A stretch of 64,000 bases of DNA from a virus (taxonomy: Duplodnaviria; Caudoviricetes): positions 1 to 64,000 of the IMG/VR virus record IMGVR_UViG_3300002446_000068. The stretch is one strand, 5' to 3'. Positions 53,298-62,647 of the stretch are shown piece by piece. Numbering within the stretch: the first letter of the stretch is position 1; every line of letters begins with the position of its first letter. Both the position numbers and the translations under genes were made by a program. A model generated the notes under the pieces. The model saw only the letters and a program-made list of their open reading frames with translations. It searched no databases and was not told where the DNA came from.

Positions 53298-53376
53298 TGG
53301 GGCGGCACCGACTTGCACGGTGCACTGGGCTACTACTTCGCCACCCAAGGCCGGTTCTACCACGGCCACCCGCCCC
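53298..53376 (-). ncRNA. tRNA-like structured RNA without canonical anticodon loop
   Basis: GGGGCGG/CCGCCCC acceptor + A; GGCCG-TGGTAGAAC-CGGCC D-like arm; CACCG-TGCAAGT-CGGTG T-like arm. Confidence 0.55.
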
Positions 53377-54540: not shown

Positions 54541-55302
54541 TCATGCGTTGATGTTCCCTCCTACCCGCGCAACAATCCACCGGGCCACATTCTCTGGTAG
54601 TTCGATGATATCTCCTCCTTCCTTGTGGCAACTCACTGTCAAATACAGCAAGTCGTTTGCCCCAGGACGCTCATACACCGTATTAAAGTACAACTTGCCG
54701 CCCATGTACACAGCGTCCGTGGCGTAGATCTGTACGGCGCCCGATACCTCACTCACCAACTTTCGTGCTTGGCCCGGGTCCGGCAGGGCGGCGATTGCTT
54801 CTAAGAGGCCCTGGACAGAGCCTCCCGGAAGCTGGTCTACGTCAATGTGCGTTTCTATCTCGCCGTCTGGGTCAACAATGTTGGTGAGAACGTCTGCCCC
54901 TGCCGTGGGGCAGTACGCCAAGATGTTGAGAATCGACATCCAATCTGCACCCTGCTGGATGTAGCCGTGAATCTCCATGCACCGCTGGCGTACCAACCCC
55001 GCACTCATGGGTAGCCCCACGGACTGCAACCATGCCGACCACGATGAATATCCCGTTGCCTCCACAGCTTCCTTCCGTGTCGAAAGCCCCTCAAACAATT
55101 CCTTCTGGCGGTAACAGGCAATCAACGTTACCGCACGAACAGTCGCCCATGCCGTCGCCCCACGCCTTGCAATCGCATCAGGTATGAGCGGGTCAACGGT
55201 TGTCACCAGTGTTGTGATAAACTCCGGTTGTGACAGTGACACTATGTCACTTGGCAAACTGTCCAAGACCCACCTCCCACATAATGGCAGCGGTAGAAAC
55301 AT
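54541..55302 (-). CDS. Hypothetical protein
   Basis: Long ORF in replication arm; start uncertain. Confidence 0.65.
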   Translation of the reverse strand: MFLPLPLCGRWVLDSLPSDIVSLSQPEFITTLVTTVDPLIPDAIARRGATAWATVRAVTLIACYRQKELFEGLSTRKEAVEATGYSSWSAWLQSVGLPMSAGLVRQRCMEIHGYIQQGADWMSILNILAYCPTAGADVLTNIVDPDGEIETHIDVDQLPGGSVQGLLEAIAALPDPGQARKLVSEVSGAVQIYATDAVYMGGKLYFNTVYERPGANDLLYLTVSCHKEGGDIIELPENVARWIVARVGGNINA

Positions 55303-56623
55303 CTGTCACTTTCCCGTCCTTTACCGCTGCAAGAATCTTGCCCATGATTTCACTGTGAATGTCCTTCCACTCGCCAACCGCTTTCTCGCCAAGGACTGTC
55401 CACAGCCACTCATCGGGGTTTTCAACACCCGCACTCTTGGCCAATGCCTGAATGCTGACGGGCACTTTTTGTTGATGTTGCGGGCCTATGACAATCTCGG
55501 GTCCGCGATCCACCACGGGGGCCGGGGCCGGGGGCTGTTCCTTTTTCACGGTCTGCTCCGTCGGTGCCCTGTCGCCAGCATAGTATTGGGGCCACCCAAA
55601 TGCGGCGACCTCACTGCCCTCCGCACAGAAGGTGCGCAAGGCTTGCAACATCTCCCACGTCAACTCATGGCCGGAGTCAATGTGGAAGTGGCGCTTGAGA
55701 TGATTCTTGAATCGCGGGTGGTCAGGGCCAAAGTTCTCAATGCCCTCACCGAACTTCTTGTTGATAAGGTTATTGAACGCATCGTTGGTCACGAGCTTGC
55801 CCCAGTCAACAATGGCGTCCGCTACCTTGTCCTCACCGAACCACATCTTCACTTTCTTCTGGTCGTCTACCGGTGGGACATCGTCCTTGGGGGCCATCTG
55901 CTTGTAGTAGTCGCCCATCATCTTGGTGAACCCCTTGGAATCGCTAAGGGTAGACGCCCACTTCATGGCCCCCATGCCGTCGGGGTCGGCGTAAATCTCT
56001 TTAAGAGACATGCCCTTGAACTTCTTGTCCTTGCCCCAACCCCACTCGCACACAGCGTCGCCCAAGTCTGTCGTGCCGGATGGCTCTGGGTCCTCTGCAT
56101 ACTTGGTGGCACGGCTGGACATATCCTCATAGCCGAGCACCTGTGCCGTGCGCTCATCAAAGTACAGCTCCGCACCCAGGGCGCGACCTACCCGCATCAG
56201 GGCGTTTTTGATTGCGTCCGACAGTGAGGACTTGGCCGCTGTGTCCATCTGCTGCGGTTTCACCGGCTCATAGCTGCTGGTCCGAGAGTTGTACGGGGCC
56301 TGCGCTACGCCAACTCCACGCCCGATACGGGAGAACCGTATCTCATTGGCCTTGTCGTCCGTCACAACAAACATCACCTTCACGGTTGTGATGAACACCC
56401 AGTCGCCAAAGGCCAGACCAGGCTTGAGCAGTTCAATGTGGTCGTCCGACAGAATAAAAATGTCCTCAATGCCGTCGATGCCAAAGATTTCATTGGCAAG
56501 CTGCATCGCGTATTGGGCGGTGATATAGTCCCCATACACCCCCCTCTGCGGGTCGGCGGGATGGATGACGTTCGGCGGTATGGGCTTGGCCAGTGCGTCA
56601 TTCACTACTTGCAGACTGTTCAC
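55247..56623 (-). CDS. Rad52/Rad22-family single-strand annealing protein (Sak-like) with long C-terminal extension
   Basis: YITAQYAMQLANEIFG, GRGVG, AAKSSLSDAIKNALMRVG..LG.ELY. Confidence 0.85.
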   Translation of the reverse strand: MNSLQVVNDALAKPIPPNVIHPADPQRGVYGDYITAQYAMQLANEIFGIDGIEDIFILSDDHIELLKPGLAFGDWVFITTVKVMFVVTDDKANEIRFSRIGRGVGVAQAPYNSRTSSYEPVKPQQMDTAAKSSLSDAIKNALMRVGRALGAELYFDERTAQVLGYEDMSSRATKYAEDPEPSGTTDLGDAVCEWGWGKDKKFKGMSLKEIYADPDGMGAMKWASTLSDSKGFTKMMGDYYKQMAPKDDVPPVDDQKKVKMWFGEDKVADAIVDWGKLVTNDAFNNLINKKFGEGIENFGPDHPRFKNHLKRHFHIDSGHELTWEMLQALRTFCAEGSEVAAFGWPQYYAGDRAPTEQTVKKEQPPAPAPVVDRGPEIVIGPQHQQKVPVSIQALAKSAGVENPDEWLWTVLGEKAVGEWKDIHSEIMGKILAAVKDGKVTDVSTAAIMWEVGLGQFAK

Positions 56624-56999
56624 GTTCCCTCCTCATAGCTTCCATCAAGATTTTCAGGACGTTGGCGGCGTGCTCCGCTTCGGCCTTCCGAAAGGCTACG
56701 TCCTCTTTCAACTCGATCACCCGCTGCTGCTTGGCACTCACCAACTCGGCGCTGTACACAATATAGTCGGCCTGAACCTTGCGTTGTTCCGCGTTCTTGC
56801 CGTCAATCGCACCGAGCCGGTAGGCTTCCTCCATGACGGAGGTTTCCAGCCGGTCCTTTTCGTATTGGAGAAGGGCCAGCATGGCAGCTCTGCTGATCTC
56901 CAAATTCTTTGCCTCAAGAGAGGCCACCGCCACATGATAGGCCACTCTCTCCAAACTTGTCAAATCTGACAGGATTTCTTCTACTACGTCCATTCTCAT
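56598..56999 (-). CDS. Coiled-coil hypothetical protein
   Basis: IDGKNAEQRK pattern; AAGGAAGG RBS. Confidence 0.6.
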   Translation of the reverse strand: MRMDVVEEILSDLTSLERVAYHVAVASLEAKNLEISRAAMLALLQYEKDRLETSVMEEAYRLGAIDGKNAEQRKVQADYIVYSAELVSAKQQRVIELKEDVAFRKAEAEHAANVLKILMEAMRREREQSASSE

Positions 57000-57013
57000 T
57001 CCTTCCTTTTTAG

Positions 57014-58258
57014 CTACACACGACTCCAAAAACTTCTGGTCTTTCTGTCGTGCTGGAGGGTGAACTCCCAATCCAACAGATTGTCGTCGATGTATGTCGG
57101 TGGTAACTTGTCCTTCTTGACCTTGAAAAACTCTGTGTCCGGCTCCAACCAATGGCGCATCATAATCACCACCTGGTCTGCCGCATGGTAGACACGCGCC
57201 GAGCCAAACGGGCTTGGGTTACTCACATTGTGTGTGTTGCGGAACTCATTCGCCTTGGTGTCGCTGAATTGAGCGAACACAAACGTACACACACCGTGGT
57301 CGATGCCTACATTCCGTATGCCCTCCACCAAAGAGGATAGCTCCTGGTCCTCCCTCTTTCTACCCGATGAATCATCCGGGGCTTTGAGATAGTCCCAAAT
57401 GACCACACTCGGTTTCTCCCAATACACGATTCGGTCCAGGGCCTCTGCGGTGCTGTGCTTGTAGTCGTAGATTGCCAGATACCTATCCAGTTTCTGTAAC
57501 TCTACAGAAGCGTCCACTTTCTGCAACCGCACTTCTCGGTCCGACCAGTTGCCCATCGGCCTTAGAACGCCAATCGCTACTTCGGTGGGCGGCATTTCTG
57601 TGGAAATGAACGCCGTCCGGATTCCCTTTTGCACCAACTGTGCGGCGATGGTGTAGGCCATTGTGGACTTGCCGTGATTGGAGATGCCGATAAACAGATT
57701 GGTGCTTGCCGACCACAACCCTCCTTTCAGAGCACGATCTAGCTGTGCTATTCCTGTATTGCCCATGATGTCCCGCGTCTCCCTCTTGTAGTGGGTGGAC
57801 GGCCTGGAATCGTAAGCACGGTCCTGCGTTAGCCCGTTAAACAGGTTGCAGGCGTAGGGCATCCACTGCCGGATTTCCTTGGGCTTGCCCTTGCGTAGAT
57901 CCTGCACTTCACGGACCGCCTGGTCAAAGTCGCGCAACAGGACCGCATCTTGCAGAGGCTCGACAAACACCTCTACCTTGTTGCCCGGTGGCGCTGGCTC
58001 TTTCCAGATAGCCAGCAGGTCTTTCCACCTCTCGGGTGGAACCCCATTGTTGGAGAACGACATAATGGAAAGAGGGTCTATCTCTTTCCCTGTCATCCTC
58101 AAACGGATAGAGGATTCTATAGCCGACCCATACAGCGGGTCGGAGAACCACCTTCGCGTTACCCCCCTCTGTATCAGAAGGTCTACAGTGGCGGGGTCTT
58201 TTGCAATCCATCTGACAACCGATTCTTCGGCGGGGATGTTCTTTGTTGGGTCTGCCAT
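57014..58258 (-). CDS. dnaB: DnaB-like replicative helicase
   Basis: TGIAQLDRALKGGL, GISNHGKST Walker A, FISTEM, VIWDYL, FAQ, ADQVVIM. Confidence 0.88.
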   Translation of the reverse strand: MADPTKNIPAEESVVRWIAKDPATVDLLIQRGVTRRWFSDPLYGSAIESSIRLRMTGKEIDPLSIMSFSNNGVPPERWKDLLAIWKEPAPPGNKVEVFVEPLQDAVLLRDFDQAVREVQDLRKGKPKEIRQWMPYACNLFNGLTQDRAYDSRPSTHYKRETRDIMGNTGIAQLDRALKGGLWSASTNLFIGISNHGKSTMAYTIAAQLVQKGIRTAFISTEMPPTEVAIGVLRPMGNWSDREVRLQKVDASVELQKLDRYLAIYDYKHSTAEALDRIVYWEKPSVVIWDYLKAPDDSSGRKREDQELSSLVEGIRNVGIDHGVCTFVFAQFSDTKANEFRNTHNVSNPSPFGSARVYHAADQVVIMMRHWLEPDTEFFKVKKDKLPPTYIDDNLLDWEFTLQHDRKTRSFWSRV

Positions 58259-60407: not shown

Positions 60408-60435
60408 AAAAGCCTGGGGTTTTGACACCCCAGGC
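60408..60435 (-). terminator. Intrinsic terminator after Ro60
   Basis: GCCTGGGG-TGTCAAAA-CCCCAGGC-TTTT. Confidence 0.75.
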
Positions 60436-60442
60436 CCATTCG

Positions 60443-62092
60443 CTACCACGTGGCAAAGTCGCTGATTAGCTGCGGTGCAGCCGTATCGTACCCGACCACA
60501 TCCACCATCCCACCATCATTGGGGTCCGCAATTGAGAACCCCGTGCTGGTCATGCCGACCACTGCCAACTTGGCCGGAATGCCCATCTCACGCCGGTACT
60601 GCTTGAGGGCCTGTACAGGATGAATGCGACCGGCCCACGTTTCGTGGTCGGTATAGACAACGAATGTATCAATGGGCGTCTTGGTTTCCGTCGCGTAAAT
60701 CATCGGCAGGGAACAGTCGGTCCCGCCAAAGGGCAGGTTGTCCACTTCCCGCACCACATCATCCAGCCGTTGTCGCGGCGAGATGTTCAGCACCGATAGC
60801 GCGTCCCGGCCGCTACCGCTAGTGAACCCCACAAACATATGATTGGGTTCCACCTTTGCGGTGATGAGGGCCATCGCCGCCGACCCCACTCTCGGGGTTA
60901 CGCCGGTCATGCCTGCAATCTCACCACACGTCATGCTCCCTGATACGTCTAGGGCCAGCATCCAGCGCTTGCCGGTGCTTTCGACGTTGCCGAACGCCTG
61001 ATAGAACGCATCATCTAATGCGTCTATAATCTGTGGTACAGGCTCCCAGGTCTTGACATCCGAATCGGAAACACGACCCCTGCTGTGATAGCCCACCGCA
61101 CGTCCACGGGCCACCCCTGCCCCACCCTTGTAGGTATTCAGGGCCACCAGAATGGTGAGGGGATGGACCTTGGCGCGGAGCACAGCCTCACTGTCCAGCC
61201 GCGCGGCCACCAGGCTTGTAGCCGCCGACATCGGGGCCAGCAGACCCACACGAGTCATGTTCGCCAGATTACGAATCATGGCCGTCATGGGCATTTCTTC
61301 CAGCAGGGCCGCCCACACTTCCTTATCGGTCAGCCACTCGGTCGGAATCATTTCGCGGGTCAGCTTGTAGTCGCGGATATACTTGACAATCTGTGACGTC
61401 GTTTTGGCCCGCTTGGCCGACTCATACCCCACGATGGTGGGTATGTCGCTCGACGGGTCGGGCAAAGCGCCCTTCACCACCCAGGCAAAGATGTCCTGGT
61501 AGATTTCCTCCGTCGGATCCGGGTGAGACAGCCGCAGCAAGTCTCGGTGGGACCAGCCCTCCCGCTGTTGATACTTGACGACCTGGTAGGCCAAGTGCGC
61601 CGGGCTTTTGCTCAAGTACCAGTTGGCCACGGCCTCGCGCAGCGACCGCCCCCAGCCCCGAAAGTGCTCCACATAATCCACGTACTTGAACAAGTGGGCA
61701 CCGGTACGCGCCACAAGCGGCAGGCTTTCGAGTGCGTACAGACTTGCAAGCCCGGAGCACTCCGGCGATGACGCCAATGCCAATGCGAACAGGGCAGCGT
61801 CGTTCTTGGGCGCACGCCCTACCCTGCTCACTTCGACGATACGGTCCACCGTCCGTCGCCCATCCGCTTTGAGGCAGCGGATAACGCATTCTGCATTCGC
61901 AACAGTTAGCTCCGCCGCACTTGCGTAGTAGGTGGGGGAGTCCGACCCCAGGATAAGGAACCGGTCCAGCCTGGCCCAGTCGTCCAGGGCAAAGGCAAAC
62001 CCACCCGCACTATTGCGCACCTGGTCGGTGCCGGGGATGGGTTGGGATTGCGGCGTCTGCCGCGTGGAAAAAGCGTCCGTGTACTTCATCAT
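60443..62092 (-). CDS. rsr: Ro60/Rsr ortholog (TROVE + vWA domain RNA-binding protein)
   Basis: NSAGGFAF..DDWARLDRFLILGS...TYYA, KYQQREGWSHRDLLRLSH, LALDVSGSM MIDAS, VVYTDHETW; AAGGAGG RBS before ATG 62092/62089. Confidence 0.95.
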   Translation of the reverse strand: MMKYTDAFSTRQTPQSQPIPGTDQVRNSAGGFAFALDDWARLDRFLILGSDSPTYYASAAELTVANAECVIRCLKADGRRTVDRIVEVSRVGRAPKNDAALFALALASSPECSGLASLYALESLPLVARTGAHLFKYVDYVEHFRGWGRSLREAVANWYLSKSPAHLAYQVVKYQQREGWSHRDLLRLSHPDPTEEIYQDIFAWVVKGALPDPSSDIPTIVGYESAKRAKTTSQIVKYIRDYKLTREMIPTEWLTDKEVWAALLEEMPMTAMIRNLANMTRVGLLAPMSAATSLVAARLDSEAVLRAKVHPLTILVALNTYKGGAGVARGRAVGYHSRGRVSDSDVKTWEPVPQIIDALDDAFYQAFGNVESTGKRWMLALDVSGSMTCGEIAGMTGVTPRVGSAAMALITAKVEPNHMFVGFTSGSGRDALSVLNISPRQRLDDVVREVDNLPFGGTDCSLPMIYATETKTPIDTFVVYTDHETWAGRIHPVQALKQYRREMGIPAKLAVVGMTSTGFSIADPNDGGMVDVVGYDTAAPQLISDFATW

Positions 62093-62176
62093 CGACCCTC
62101 CTTTGGGATAAATTGGCGTGTGGAGCCGAAACCCCACACGCCTGACTATTTGGGGCATCCACCCCGGAACGCTTGG

Positions 62177-62242
62177 TGGGCTAGTATTTGTAGTCGGGAA
62201 TTTCATACCCGAAGTGTTTGATAACCGACCACATCCGGCCCA
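62177..62242 (-). ncRNA. Y RNA 4 (end-paired, YrlB/animal-like topology)
   Basis: TGGGCCGG/CTAGCCCA lower stem; TGTGGTCGG/CCGACTACA upper stem; GGTTATC; TATAAT 5 nt upstream (62253-62248). Confidence 0.8.
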
Positions 62243-62284
62243 CACATATTATAAACGCTGTGCGTTTAATATCATCTCTTATAC

Positions 62285-62340
62285 GGGCGAATGATTGTGG
62301 TGGGAGATTCTTATGATAGATAACCCACCAACTCCGGCCC
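62285..62340 (-). ncRNA. Y RNA 3 (56-nt minimal, end-paired)
   Basis: GGGC(C)GGA/TTCGCCC bulged-C helix; TGGTGGG/CCCACCA upper stem; GGTTATC. Confidence 0.8.
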
Positions 62341-62352
62341 GAGCTTTCCTGT

Positions 62353-62481
62353 GGAGAGAAGTGGGATTTGAACCCACATCACTCGATTACAAGTCGATAA
62401 CCGATAACCTCCGGCCCACCTACCGTTAGGGCTAAACATGGCATCGGTGTTTCAGTGCTCTACCATTGAGCTATTCTCTCC
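62353..62481 (-). ncRNA. Y RNA 2: tRNA(UGU)-Y RNA chimera
   Basis: 8-bp acceptor GGAGAGAA/TTCTCTCC, D arm GCTC-AATGGTA-GAGC, anticodon loop CTTGTAA, T arm GTGGG-TTCAAAT-CCCAC, 57-nt Y module insert. Confidence 0.85.
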
Positions 62482-62488
62482 ATGTAGG

Positions 62489-62612
62489 GAGAGGGGGCGG
62501 GAATCGAACCCACGTCCTAAGGTCCCATTAGATAACCAACCACAGTCGGCCAAATCGGCAAGGGTATTGCGGTCGGATCAACCTTATGCCTTACCACTAG
62601 GCTACCCCTCTC
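62489..62612 (-). ncRNA. Y RNA 1: YrlA-like tRNA mimic
   Basis: 8-bp acceptor GAGAGGGG/CCCCTCTC, D arm GCC-TAGTGGTAA-GGC, stem TAAGG/CCTTA, Y module with TTGCC/GGC(C)GA helix in place of anticodon loop, T arm GTGGG-TTCGATT-CCCGC. Confidence 0.85.
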
Positions 62613-62619
62613 ACATTCT

Positions 62620-62647
62620 ATTATAGGGAATCCACATTCCCTGTAAA
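62620..62647 (-). promoter_or_regulatory. Promoter of Y RNA-Ro60 operon
   Basis: TTTACA-N16-TATAAT, 7 nt before Y RNA 1. Confidence 0.8.

What the first reader, a model, noticed from the sequence alone, without database searches (positions are those of the whole stretch)
60408..62647. Phage operon with four tandem Y RNAs of two topologies upstream of Ro60
Seen: promoter (62647-62620), then RNA1 (62612-62489), RNA2 (62481-62353), RNA3 (62340-62285), RNA4 (62242-62177), Ro60 (62092-60443) and a terminator (60435-60408). All four RNAs contain GGCCGR-N8-GGTTATC with exactly 8-nt spacing and a complementary strand forming the Ro-binding helix. RNA1/2 are circularly permuted inside tRNA-like scaffolds with 8-bp acceptors; RNA3/4 are end-paired. 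Known: Ro60 binds Y RNAs; Salmonella has YrlA (tRNA mimic) and YrlB; Deinococcus Y RNA tethers Rsr to PNPase; some phages encode Ro60/Y RNA. No RtcB or PNPase is visible in this window. Inference: a four-member, structurally diversified Y RNA array exceeds the one or two per locus I know of. It may give one Ro60 several interchangeable adaptors to redirect host RNA decay/repair or to absorb tRNA-targeting immunity.
Basis: partly seen in the sequence, partly recalled or inferred. Interest (0 to 1): 0.92.

Follow-up and report, generated by a model that had tools for sequence, protein, structure and literature searches.

The report
Phage Ro60 with four Y RNAs
An uncultivated 73-kb phage carries a genuine Ro60 gene preceded by four partner "Y RNA" genes, two of which are built as real-looking tRNAs with the Ro60-binding arm at the anticodon position; this design is common in sequence databases, but I found no paper or Rfam family for it.

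Summary
Ro60 (TROVE + vWA) lies at 60443-62092 (-). It is preceded by a sigma-70-like promoter and four RNAs that share GGCCGR-N8-GGTTATC. That motif occurs four times in the whole phage genome and nowhere else.

RNA1 and RNA2 pass Rfam's tRNA threshold but carry a 55-70-nt Y-RNA helix at the anticodon position. Their acceptor ends are open and the Ro-binding helix is closed by a loop, the reverse of published YrlA. RNA3 and RNA4 are 58- and 68-nt end-paired Y RNAs resembling animal Y RNAs.

Covariation in more than 100 related Ro60 loci supports both folds.

The claim that four RNAs is exceptional fails. Related phage and bacterial loci carry up to six motif copies, and about a quarter carry tRNA-scaffolded units. 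Among 33 such units, six encode CCA at the 3' end and thirteen have a G-1:C73 eighth acceptor pair.

I found no paper or Rfam model for this topology. This scan has noted tRNA-scaffolded Y RNAs and five- to six-member arrays before, on other DNA.

Function is inferred only: adaptors that link phage Ro60 to host RNA enzymes, possibly for counter-defence. The phage encodes no RtcB or PNPase.

The parts
62620..62647 (-). Promoter P1 (TTTACA-16-TATAAT). Predicted start at about 62611-62614, the first bases of RNA1. It is embedded in the 3' end of the upstream ORF.
   Evidence: Consensus scan, 11/12 matches. Identical -35 and -10 in relative L016.
62489..62612 (-). RNA1, a tRNA-scaffolded Y RNA. 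It has an 8-bp acceptor (G-1:C73), a D arm with GG, a 5-bp anticodon stem, a 55-nt Y module in place of the anticodon loop, and a T arm. The Y module has upper stem CCGACCGC/GUGGUUGG and lower stem GCC/GGC closed by a 5-nt loop. The 3' tail reads C-CCU.
   Evidence: Rfam tRNA 54.6 bits. Model R1 89.6 bits. Minimum-energy fold. 8/8 upper-stem pairing with its own upstream strand.
62353..62481 (-). RNA2, a tRNA-scaffolded Y RNA. It has an 8-bp acceptor (G-1:C73), a D arm, a Y module (upper stem, internal loop, GCCC/GGGC lower stem with an 11-nt loop), a small UCGA-CUUGUAA-UCGA hairpin with an anticodon-loop-like 7-nt loop, and a T arm.
   Evidence: Rfam tRNA 49.2 bits. Model R1 97.4 bits. The minimum-energy fold shows all helices, z = -2.7. 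Conserved in L016, where it ends C-CCA.
62284..62341 (-). RNA3, a minimal end-paired Y RNA of 58 nt: lower stem CGGGC/GCCCG, internal loop, upper stem, and a loop beginning UUAUC.
   Evidence: Model R2 68.8 bits. Rfam nematode stem-bulge RNA model 29.1 bits, E 8e-4, below its threshold. Fold z = -4.2. One U-A to C-G compensatory change versus L016.
62253..62267 (-). Short hairpin AAACGC-ACA-GCGUUU followed by AUAAU. It may be a weak terminator for the P1 transcript and overlaps the -10 box of P2.
   Evidence: Read directly from the sequence. Conserved in L016. Function is inferred.
62248..62275 (-). Promoter-like site P2 (ATGATA-16-TATAAT). Predicted start at about 62241-62243, the 5' end of RNA4.
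   Evidence: Consensus scan, 10/12 matches. Conserved in L016.
62176..62243 (-). RNA4, a minimal end-paired Y RNA of 68 nt: lower stem GUGGGC/GCCCAC, internal loop CGGAU/AAAUACUA, upper stem GUGGUCGG/CCGACUAC.
   Evidence: Model R2 71.5 bits. Fold z = -3.4. In L016 the stems are conserved and the loop is variable.
62115..62142 (-). Strong 12-bp G+C-rich hairpin between RNA4 and the Ro60 ribosome-binding site, followed by AAUUUAU. It may be an attenuator, a processing site or an mRNA 5' stabiliser.
   Evidence: Fold of 62095-62170 gives -35.2 kcal/mol, z = -3.4. Conserved in L016 with a loop change. Function is inferred.
60443..62092 (-). Ro60 (Rsr) gene of 549 aa. The ribosome-binding site AAAGGAGGG lies at 62096-62104. 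The vWA domain contains a DVSGS (MIDAS-type) motif.
   Evidence: Pfam TROVE and vWA_Ro60. Matches Deinococcus Rsr 2NVO (E 1e-117), PDB entry 9NEN 'RNA-binding protein RO60' and Xenopus Ro 1YVP. Thousands of homologues.
60408..60435 (-). Intrinsic terminator: an 11-bp stem followed by UUUU.
   Evidence: Fold of -21.7 kcal/mol, z = -3.7.

Best explanation
This is a phage-borne Ro60 ribonucleoprotein module. One or two sigma-70-type promoters drive four Y RNA genes followed by ro60.

All four RNAs display the same Ro60-docking helix. It has a short lower stem, an asymmetric internal loop with CGRNN on the 5' strand, an 8-bp upper stem, and UUAUC.

In RNA3 and RNA4 the helix is closed by the RNA ends, as in animal Y RNAs. 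In RNA1 and RNA2 the same helix is turned inside out: its far end is closed by a loop, and it is grafted at the anticodon position of an otherwise complete tRNA body. That body has an acceptor stem, a D arm with G18/G19, and a T arm.

Because the acceptor end is open, host tRNA enzymes can probably cut the tandem RNAs out of the transcript and give them defined, stable ends. These enzymes would be RNase P, RNase Z or 3' exonucleases, and possibly the CCA-adding enzyme.

By analogy with Deinococcus Rsr-Y RNA-PNPase and Thermus phage phiLo Ro60-Yrl-PNPase, the RNAs would dock on phage Ro60 and present a second surface to host enzymes. That surface is a tRNA-shaped body for RNA1 and RNA2 and a small loop for RNA3 and RNA4. 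The likely effect is to redirect host RNA decay or tRNA-directed processes during infection.

What is shown: the gene, the RNAs, their folds, and their conservation and covariation. What is inferred: processing, Ro60 binding, the host partners and the benefit to the phage.
For: - Ro60 identity.
- Phage identity: hits to major head, tape-measure and tail families. The record is one 73-kb virus record, CheckV-complete.
- Motif: four times, only here. In 111 related loci it occurs only on the Ro60 strand, mostly within about 1 kb upstream.
- RNA1 and RNA2 pass the Rfam tRNA threshold with large inserts.
- tRNA-scaffolded units: a 22-sequence alignment gives compensatory changes in 19 of 21 pairs of the acceptor, D, T and lower Y stems.
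- Upper stem of those units: it pairs 8/8 with a strand upstream in the same unit in 67% of 24 units, against 6.4% in cross-unit controls.
- Short Y RNA family: 55 hits, all on the Ro60 strand. 91% of cells are paired, with 145 double changes against 50 in shuffles, and at most 51% paired when the partner is slid.
- tRNA-like maturation: encoded CCA at positions 74-76 in 6 of 33 units and G-1:C73 in 13 of 33.
- Closest relative L016 keeps both promoters, RNA2-4 and the hairpins.
- Literature: Y RNAs tether Ro60 to PNPase, and M. smegmatis YrlA is cut by RNase P and receives CCA (PMC4201824). phiLo Ro60 with its Yrl RNAs binds host PNPase (PMC12135203). A Ro60-like phage protein counters the ppl defence (10.1101/2024.10.10.617714).
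Against: - There are no expression, processing or binding data for this phage, and its host is unknown.
- L016 has lost the 5' half of RNA1, so RNA1 is dispensable in at least one relative.
- The published bacterial Ro-site motif GNCGAAN0-1G is matched only approximately. The four RNAs here read GCCGACUG, GCCGGAG (RNA2 and RNA3) and GCCGGAUG.
- The lower stem of RNA1 and RNA2 is only 3-4 bp, shorter than the Ro-bound helix in the Xenopus structure, so the binding geometry may differ.
- The 3' tails here are CCU (RNA1) and ACA (RNA2), not CCA.
Confidence: 0.72

Rival explanations
1. RNA1 and RNA2 act mainly as tRNA decoys or surrogate tRNAs. They would have CCA-ended acceptors, possibly be aminoacylated, or be bait for anticodon nucleases and other tRNA-targeting defences. 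Ro60 binding would be secondary or serve only to protect them.
For: - The full tRNA elbow nucleotides are present and both RNAs pass the Rfam tRNA threshold.
- In relatives, CCA is encoded in 6 of 33 units and G-1:C73 is present in 13 of 33.
- Most units, including RNA2, keep a 7-nt loop with U at position 2 and often AA at positions 6-7, like an anticodon loop.
Against: - The Y helix is the most conserved part and is always linked to a Ro60 gene on the same strand.
- Acceptor and 'anticodon' identities do not agree within a unit. RNA2, for example, combines a G-1:C73 acceptor with a UGU loop.
- RNA1 has no anticodon-like loop at all.
Confidence: 0.15
2. The tRNA bodies are only processing and stability scaffolds. 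They would be punctuation that lets RNase P and RNase Z release tandem Y modules from one transcript. The effector function would lie solely in Ro60 and the Y helix.
For: - RNA1 and RNA2 are separated by 7 nt and sit directly at the predicted transcription start.
- tRNA-like punctuation is a well-known processing strategy (general knowledge).
- RNA1 is lost in L016 without loss of the locus.
Against: - Elbow nucleotides and D/T sequences are conserved well beyond what cleavage needs.
- In canonical YrlA the same tRNA-like domain is kept although its acceptor is closed and, in most species, not cut (10.1101/312249). This argues that the domain itself is functional.
Confidence: 0.1
3. Register artefact. 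The real RNA would be one canonical YrlA running from the Y strand of RNA1 through its T arm, an 'acceptor' hairpin formed across the RNA1/RNA2 junction (CUCUCC-CUACAU-GGAGAG), and the D arm of RNA2, to the Y strand of RNA2.
For: - The Rfam YrlA model gives a weak hit at 62457-62517 across the junction: 21.1 bits, E 0.077.
- A 6-bp junction hairpin is possible (sequence).
- Chen et al. warn that tandem tRNA-like units mimic YrlA in such searches (PMC4201824).
Against: - The upper-stem strand of RNA1 (GUGGUUGG) pairs 8/8 with RNA1's own upstream strand and does not pair with RNA2's strand.
- The same within-unit rule holds across relatives: 67% against 6.4%.
- The 7-8-bp acceptor stems covary strongly.
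- L016 keeps an intact RNA2 although RNA1's 5' half is deleted and the junction hairpin is lost.
- The score is far below the threshold of 69 bits.
Confidence: 0.03

Closest known systems
YrlA Y RNAs of bacteria and mycobacteriophages (Rfam RF02553; Chen et al. 2014, PMC4201824; structure in 10.1101/312249)
   Same: - Encoded beside Ro60 on the same strand.
- Combine a Ro60-docking helix with a tRNA-like domain that has conserved D and T arms.
- Often several per locus and processed from one precursor.
- M. smegmatis YrlA is even cut by RNase P and receives CCA.
   Different: - The topology is reversed. In YrlA the RNA ends lie in the Ro helix and the acceptor is a closed loop ('lacks a free CCA end'). 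In RNA1 and RNA2 the acceptor is open and the Ro helix is closed by a loop.
- The Rfam YrlA model scores only 21 bits here, against a threshold of 69.
- The 5' strand carries GGUUAUC, which is absent from the YrlA consensus as printed.
Animal Y RNAs and nematode stem-bulge RNAs (Rfam RF01656)
   Same: - RNA3 and RNA4 have the same plan: end-paired lower stem, CCGR internal loop, upper stem, and a loop starting UUAUC.
- The 5' strand aligns almost base for base with the stem-bulge RNA consensus UCGGUCCGGaG...UGGGUUAUC.
- Relatives L015 and L010 exceed that family's threshold: 41.0 and 40.6 bits against 38.
   Different: - Much shorter (58-68 nt) and encoded by a phage.
- RNA3 and RNA4 themselves score below threshold (29.1 and 17.3 bits).
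- Whether the likeness reflects shared ancestry or the shared Ro60 surface is not known.
Thermus phage phiLo Ro60 with Yrl1 and Yrl2 (PMC12135203)
   Same: - A phage Ro60 gene with Y-like RNAs directly upstream.
- No phage PNPase.
- The RNAs and Ro60 form complexes with host PNPase in vitro.
   Different: - Two RNAs, both described as end-paired stem-bulge-stem structures.
- No tRNA scaffold is reported.
- The proteins are only distantly related. phiLo Ro60 did not appear among the PDB sequence matches at E <= 1e-5.
Deinococcus radiodurans Rsr with Yrn1 and Yrn2 and PNPase (PMC4201824 and work cited there)
   Same: - The closest solved Ro60 by sequence: 2NVO, E 1e-117.
- Y RNA acts as a tether between Ro60 and an exoribonuclease, which is the mechanistic model used here.
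   Different: - In Yrn1 the Ro helix sits at the acceptor position of a weak tRNA likeness.
- It is a cellular, stress-induced system.

Membership tests
Ro60 / Rsr (TROVE + vWA) | TROVE (HEAT-repeat ring) domain | tested here: met
   PF05731, E 2.4e-44.
Ro60 / Rsr (TROVE + vWA) | C-terminal Ro60-type vWA domain with a MIDAS-type DxSxS motif | tested here: met
   PF25045, E 5.3e-63, full length 1-165/165. DVSGS is read in the translation.
Ro60 / Rsr (TROVE + vWA) | Full-length similarity to structurally solved Ro60 proteins | tested here: met
   2NVO E 1e-117, 9NEN E 5e-112, 1YVP E 4e-110, each covering about residues 11-547.
Y RNA (general) | Encoded next to Ro60 on the same strand | tested here: met
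   All four lie 84-520 nt upstream on the same strand. The same strand rule holds in 111 loci.
Y RNA (general) | Bulged helix carrying the conserved Ro-site motif (bacterial GNCGAAN0-1G; animal GGUCCGA) | tested here: inconclusive
   The four RNAs read GCCGACUG, GCCGGAG (RNA2 and RNA3) and GCCGGAUG, which are near matches. RNA2 of L016 reads GCCGAAAG, an exact match. The helix architecture covaries.
Y RNA (general) | Bound by Ro60 in vivo | not testable with these tools
   Needs immunoprecipitation or a gel-shift assay.
YrlA (Rfam RF02553) | Score at or above the family's gathering threshold of 69 bits | tested here: not met
   The best hit is 21.1 bits and spans the RNA1/RNA2 junction.
YrlA (Rfam RF02553) | RNA ends form the Ro helix, with order T arm, closed acceptor-like loop, D arm | tested here: not met
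   RNA1 and RNA2 have the order acceptor 5', D, Y helix (closed), T, acceptor 3'.
YrlA (Rfam RF02553) | tRNA-like D and T arms with elbow nucleotides | tested here: met
   Rfam tRNA alignment shows GG in the D loop and UUCGAUU / UUCAAAU T loops.
tRNA (Rfam RF00005) | Cloverleaf scoring above the gathering threshold | tested here: met
   54.6 and 49.2 bits against a threshold of 29.
tRNA (Rfam RF00005) | Normal 7-nt anticodon loop on a 5-bp stem at the anticodon position, allowing decoding | tested here: not met
   A 55-70-nt insert sits at that position. ARAGORN in default mode calls no tRNA in the window.
Nematode stem-bulge RNA (Rfam RF01656) | Score at or above the gathering threshold of 38 bits | tested here: not met
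   RNA3 scores 29.1 and RNA4 17.3 bits. Relatives L015 and L010 do pass, at 41.0 and 40.6 bits.

The most novel reading that the evidence does not exclude
tRNA-scaffolded Y RNAs would be a distinct and widespread class that is matured like real tRNAs to a free CCA end. Some, with a G-1:C73 acceptor like that of tRNA-His, might even be charged. They would link Ro60 to tRNA-handling machinery such as synthetases, EF-Tu, the ribosome or anticodon-nuclease defences, rather than only to PNPase. In this phage the four-RNA set would then be a counter-defence or translation-hijacking device.
Probability: 0.12. Interest if true: 0.85.

Novelty: new variant of a known kind. Interest (0 to 1): 0.6.

Why it matters
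Ro60-Y RNA particles are conserved from bacteria to humans and are a major lupus and Sjogren autoantigen. What the tRNA-like half of bacterial Y RNAs binds is still unknown.

A common natural form with an open, sometimes CCA-ended acceptor stem turns a published speculation into something testable. The speculation is that some YrlA RNAs might be processed to resemble real tRNAs. Ends can be mapped, charging assayed and partners pulled down.

It also shows that Rfam's YrlA model and standard tRNA finders miss a large share of Y RNAs, so Ro60 loci are under-annotated.

For phage biology it adds a compact, well-delimited operon of two promoters, four RNAs and one protein. Such an operon could be moved into a model host to ask what phage Ro60 particles do. 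One Ro60-like phage protein has already been tied to counter-defence.

Tried and rejected
- Canonical YrlA reading across the RNA1/RNA2 junction. Rejected on strand complementarity, covariation and the L016 deletion.
- Genuine intron-containing tRNA genes. Rejected because the inserts carry the same Ro-site helix as RNA3 and RNA4 and always accompany Ro60. Default ARAGORN finds no tRNA.
- ARAGORN with introns allowed gave useful leads but also artefacts: fusions of neighbouring true tRNAs and two hits inside Ro60 coding sequence. I used it only to pick seeds.
- My first census regular expression was offset by one base and gave noise. It was corrected. That heuristic still has about 17% background (29 minus-strand against 174 plus-strand hits), so array sizes are quoted from the strict motif.
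- MAFFT did not align the 3' strand of the upper stem, so RNAalifold and model R1 omit that helix. I tested it separately by script.
- Nucleotide search of known phages found only weak hits to Ro60 coding sequence in actinophages and no relative of the RNA array.
- RtcB and RNase PH (PNPase) domains are absent from the whole phage genome.
- The supplementary tables of Chen et al. 2014 and two reviews (PMC10870794, PMC6542706) were not available. I therefore could not check how many YrlA per locus were tabulated, or whether any tRNA-scaffolded form is drawn there.
- A hairpin-finding script for the anticodon-like loop often picked the wrong stem. The statement about that loop rests on reading the alignment.
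Full report
**What is there**

The window is most of a single 72,957-bp virus record. It is CheckV-complete, with 54.8% G+C. PHROG hits to major head, tape-measure and tail proteins confirm a tailed phage.

On the minus strand, among replication and recombination genes, lies an ORF at 60443-62092. Its neighbours include a DnaB-like helicase and a Rad52-like annealase. The ORF's product matches Pfam TROVE (E 2e-44) and the Ro60-specific vWA domain (E 5e-63, full length). It aligns end to end with Deinococcus Rsr (2NVO, E 1e-117), PDB entry 9NEN ('RNA-binding protein RO60') and Xenopus Ro60. It has thousands of homologues. It is a bona fide Ro60.

**The four RNAs**

The motif GGCCGR-N8-GGTTATC occurs four times in the genome, all on the minus strand between 62220 and 62551.

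Rfam calls 62489-62611 and 62353-62480 tRNA, at 54.6 and 49.2 bits against a threshold of 29. The acceptor, D and T arms are normal, but 55 and 70 nt sit at the anticodon position. Default ARAGORN finds no tRNA.

In both RNAs one more base pair (G-1:C73) extends the acceptor to 8 bp. The D loops carry GG and the T loops read UUCGAUU and UUCAAAU.

The insert in each contains the shared motif and, upstream of it, its complement. The helix is therefore closed by a small loop at the end that is open in ordinary Y RNAs.

RNA3 (62284-62341) and RNA4 (62176-62243) are simple hairpins with the same lower stem, internal loop, upper stem and UUAUC. They are closed by their own ends, with fold z-scores of -4.2 and -3.4. 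Their 5' strands align almost base for base with the consensus of Rfam's nematode stem-bulge RNAs, the worm Y RNAs. The scores are 29.1 and 17.3 bits, below that family's threshold.

**Signals**

- P1 (TTTACA-16-TATAAT, 62647-62620) predicts a start at the first bases of RNA1.
- A second promoter-like site (62275-62248) predicts a start at the first bases of RNA4. A short hairpin (62253-62267) overlaps it.
- A strong 12-bp hairpin (62115-62142) precedes the ribosome-binding site.
- A good terminator follows the gene.

All of these are conserved in the closest relative, L016.

**Is the reversed topology real?**

A canonical YrlA could in principle be read across the RNA1/RNA2 junction, and Rfam's YrlA model gives a weak hit there (21 bits, E 0.077). 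Three results argue against that reading.

- The upper-stem strand of each unit pairs with a strand in the same unit, not with the next unit.
- Across 24 tRNA-scaffolded units with 20 different upper-stem sequences, 67% pair 8/8 with their own upstream strand. Only 6.4% do in cross-unit controls.
- In L016 (Ro60 86% identical) a 71-nt deletion removes the 5' half of RNA1, yet RNA2 is intact.

In a 22-sequence alignment, 19 of 21 pairs of the acceptor, D, T and lower Y stems show compensatory changes.

For the short type, a covariance model finds 55 hits in 100 sources, all on the Ro60 strand. Of the cells, 91% are paired, with 145 double changes against 50 in shuffles. At most 51% are paired when partners are slid.

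**How common is it?**

I fetched 111 Ro60 loci: 15 viral, 73 metagenomic, 22 from genomes, and L016.

A slightly relaxed motif never occurs on the opposite strand. It occurs one to six times on the Ro60 strand in 48 loci:

| Copies | Loci |
|---|---|
| 6 | L008, L010 |
| 5 | L001, L075 |
| 4 | L015, L099 |
| 3 | 15 further loci |

These include cellular contigs from Armatimonadota, Nocardia and others.

The model of the tRNA-scaffolded type gives long hits above 50 bits in about 24 of 100 sources. These include Armatimonadota, Planctomycetota, Candidatus Parabeggiatoa and a deltaproteobacterial genome assembled from a metagenome. Related loci mix three forms: short hairpins, canonical-topology YrlA-like RNAs and tRNA-scaffolded units. 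All the YrlA-like RNAs score below Rfam's YrlA threshold.

A four-member, two-topology array is therefore typical of this clade rather than exceptional.

**Features of the tRNA-scaffolded class**

Among 33 distinct units, six encode CCA exactly at positions 74-76, where about 0.5 would be expected by chance. Thirteen have G-1:C73, where about 2 would be expected. Paralogues make these counts non-independent.

Most units, including RNA2, keep a 3-5-bp hairpin with a 7-nt loop between the Y helix and the T arm. The loop has U at position 2 and often AA at positions 6-7. It corresponds either to an anticodon arm or to the 'V' stem-loop of YrlA. RNA1 lacks it.

Acceptor and loop identities do not agree within a unit, so these RNAs look like mimics rather than decoders.

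**Literature**

- Chen et al. 2014 found YrlA next to Ro60 in 254 bacteria and 22 phages. They showed that M. smegmatis YrlA is cut by RNase P and gains CCA (PMC4201824).
- Wang et al. 2018 describe YrlA as a circularly permuted tRNA with a closed acceptor and no free CCA. They speculate that some YrlA RNAs might be processed to resemble tRNAs more closely (10.1101/312249).
- The phiLo paper reports two stem-bulge Yrl RNAs and binding of host PNPase (PMC12135203).
- A Bas63 Ro60-like protein counters the ppl defence, and its authors guess that nearby 'tRNAs' may be Y RNAs (10.1101/2024.10.10.617714).

In five searches I found no description of Y RNAs built as non-permuted tRNAs with the Ro helix at the anticodon position. 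Two reviews and the 2014 supplements were not available, so this negative is limited.

Earlier notes of this scan report tRNA-shaped Y RNAs and five- to six-member arrays on other DNA.

**Mechanism**

The best-supported reading is a phage Ro60 particle with four alternative RNA partners. RNA1 and RNA2 would be released and stabilised by host tRNA-processing enzymes. All four would dock on Ro60 through the shared helix and recruit host factors. This follows the Deinococcus and phiLo PNPase complexes.

The phage has neither RtcB nor a PNPase domain, so any enzyme partner must come from the host. Expression, processing, binding and benefit to the phage are all inferred.

**Verdict**

The feature is real and correctly delimited. 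It is a new variant of a known kind at the level of RNA topology, and one member of a widespread class. Its size is not unusual.

Noticed in passing
L016:2378-2857: In the closest relative, an HNH endonuclease gene (PF13392) sits directly after Ro60. It is absent at that position in the window and looks like a mobile insertion.
   Followed up: no
L052, L061, L068, L070, L087, L027, L026, L111 (whole loci): Many related Ro60 genes lie beside long arrays of ordinary 75-77-nt tRNA genes, seen as model R1 hits of that length. This suggests a recurrent Ro60-tRNA array linkage.
   Followed up: partly
L015:2404-2475 and L010:2240-2313: Y RNAs on uncultivated viral contigs score above the gathering threshold of Rfam's nematode stem-bulge RNA family RF01656 (41.0 and 40.6 bits against 38). 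Automated annotation would therefore label them as worm small RNAs.
   Followed up: partly
G000 ends (bases 30-60 and the 31 bases ending 29 nt before the 3' end): The same 31-nt string occurs near both contig ends but offset, so it is not a clean terminal repeat. It may be an assembly overlap of a circular or terminally redundant genome.
   Followed up: no
window 53298-53376 (-): Other first-stage notes flag a tRNA-shaped RNA here. It is not called by Rfam at gathering threshold, ARAGORN or model R1 at E <= 0.01, and it lacks the Y motif.
   Followed up: partly
window 54541-58258 (-): Downstream of the Ro60 operon on the same strand are a DnaB-like helicase (57014-58258) and a Rad52/22-like annealase (55247-56623). 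The Ro60 module therefore sits in the replication/recombination (likely early or middle) region.
   Followed up: no
L002:4981-5474 (same as L003, L031) and L056:2506-2817: In a few loci the Y RNA array lies downstream of Ro60 instead of upstream, still on the same strand.
   Followed up: no
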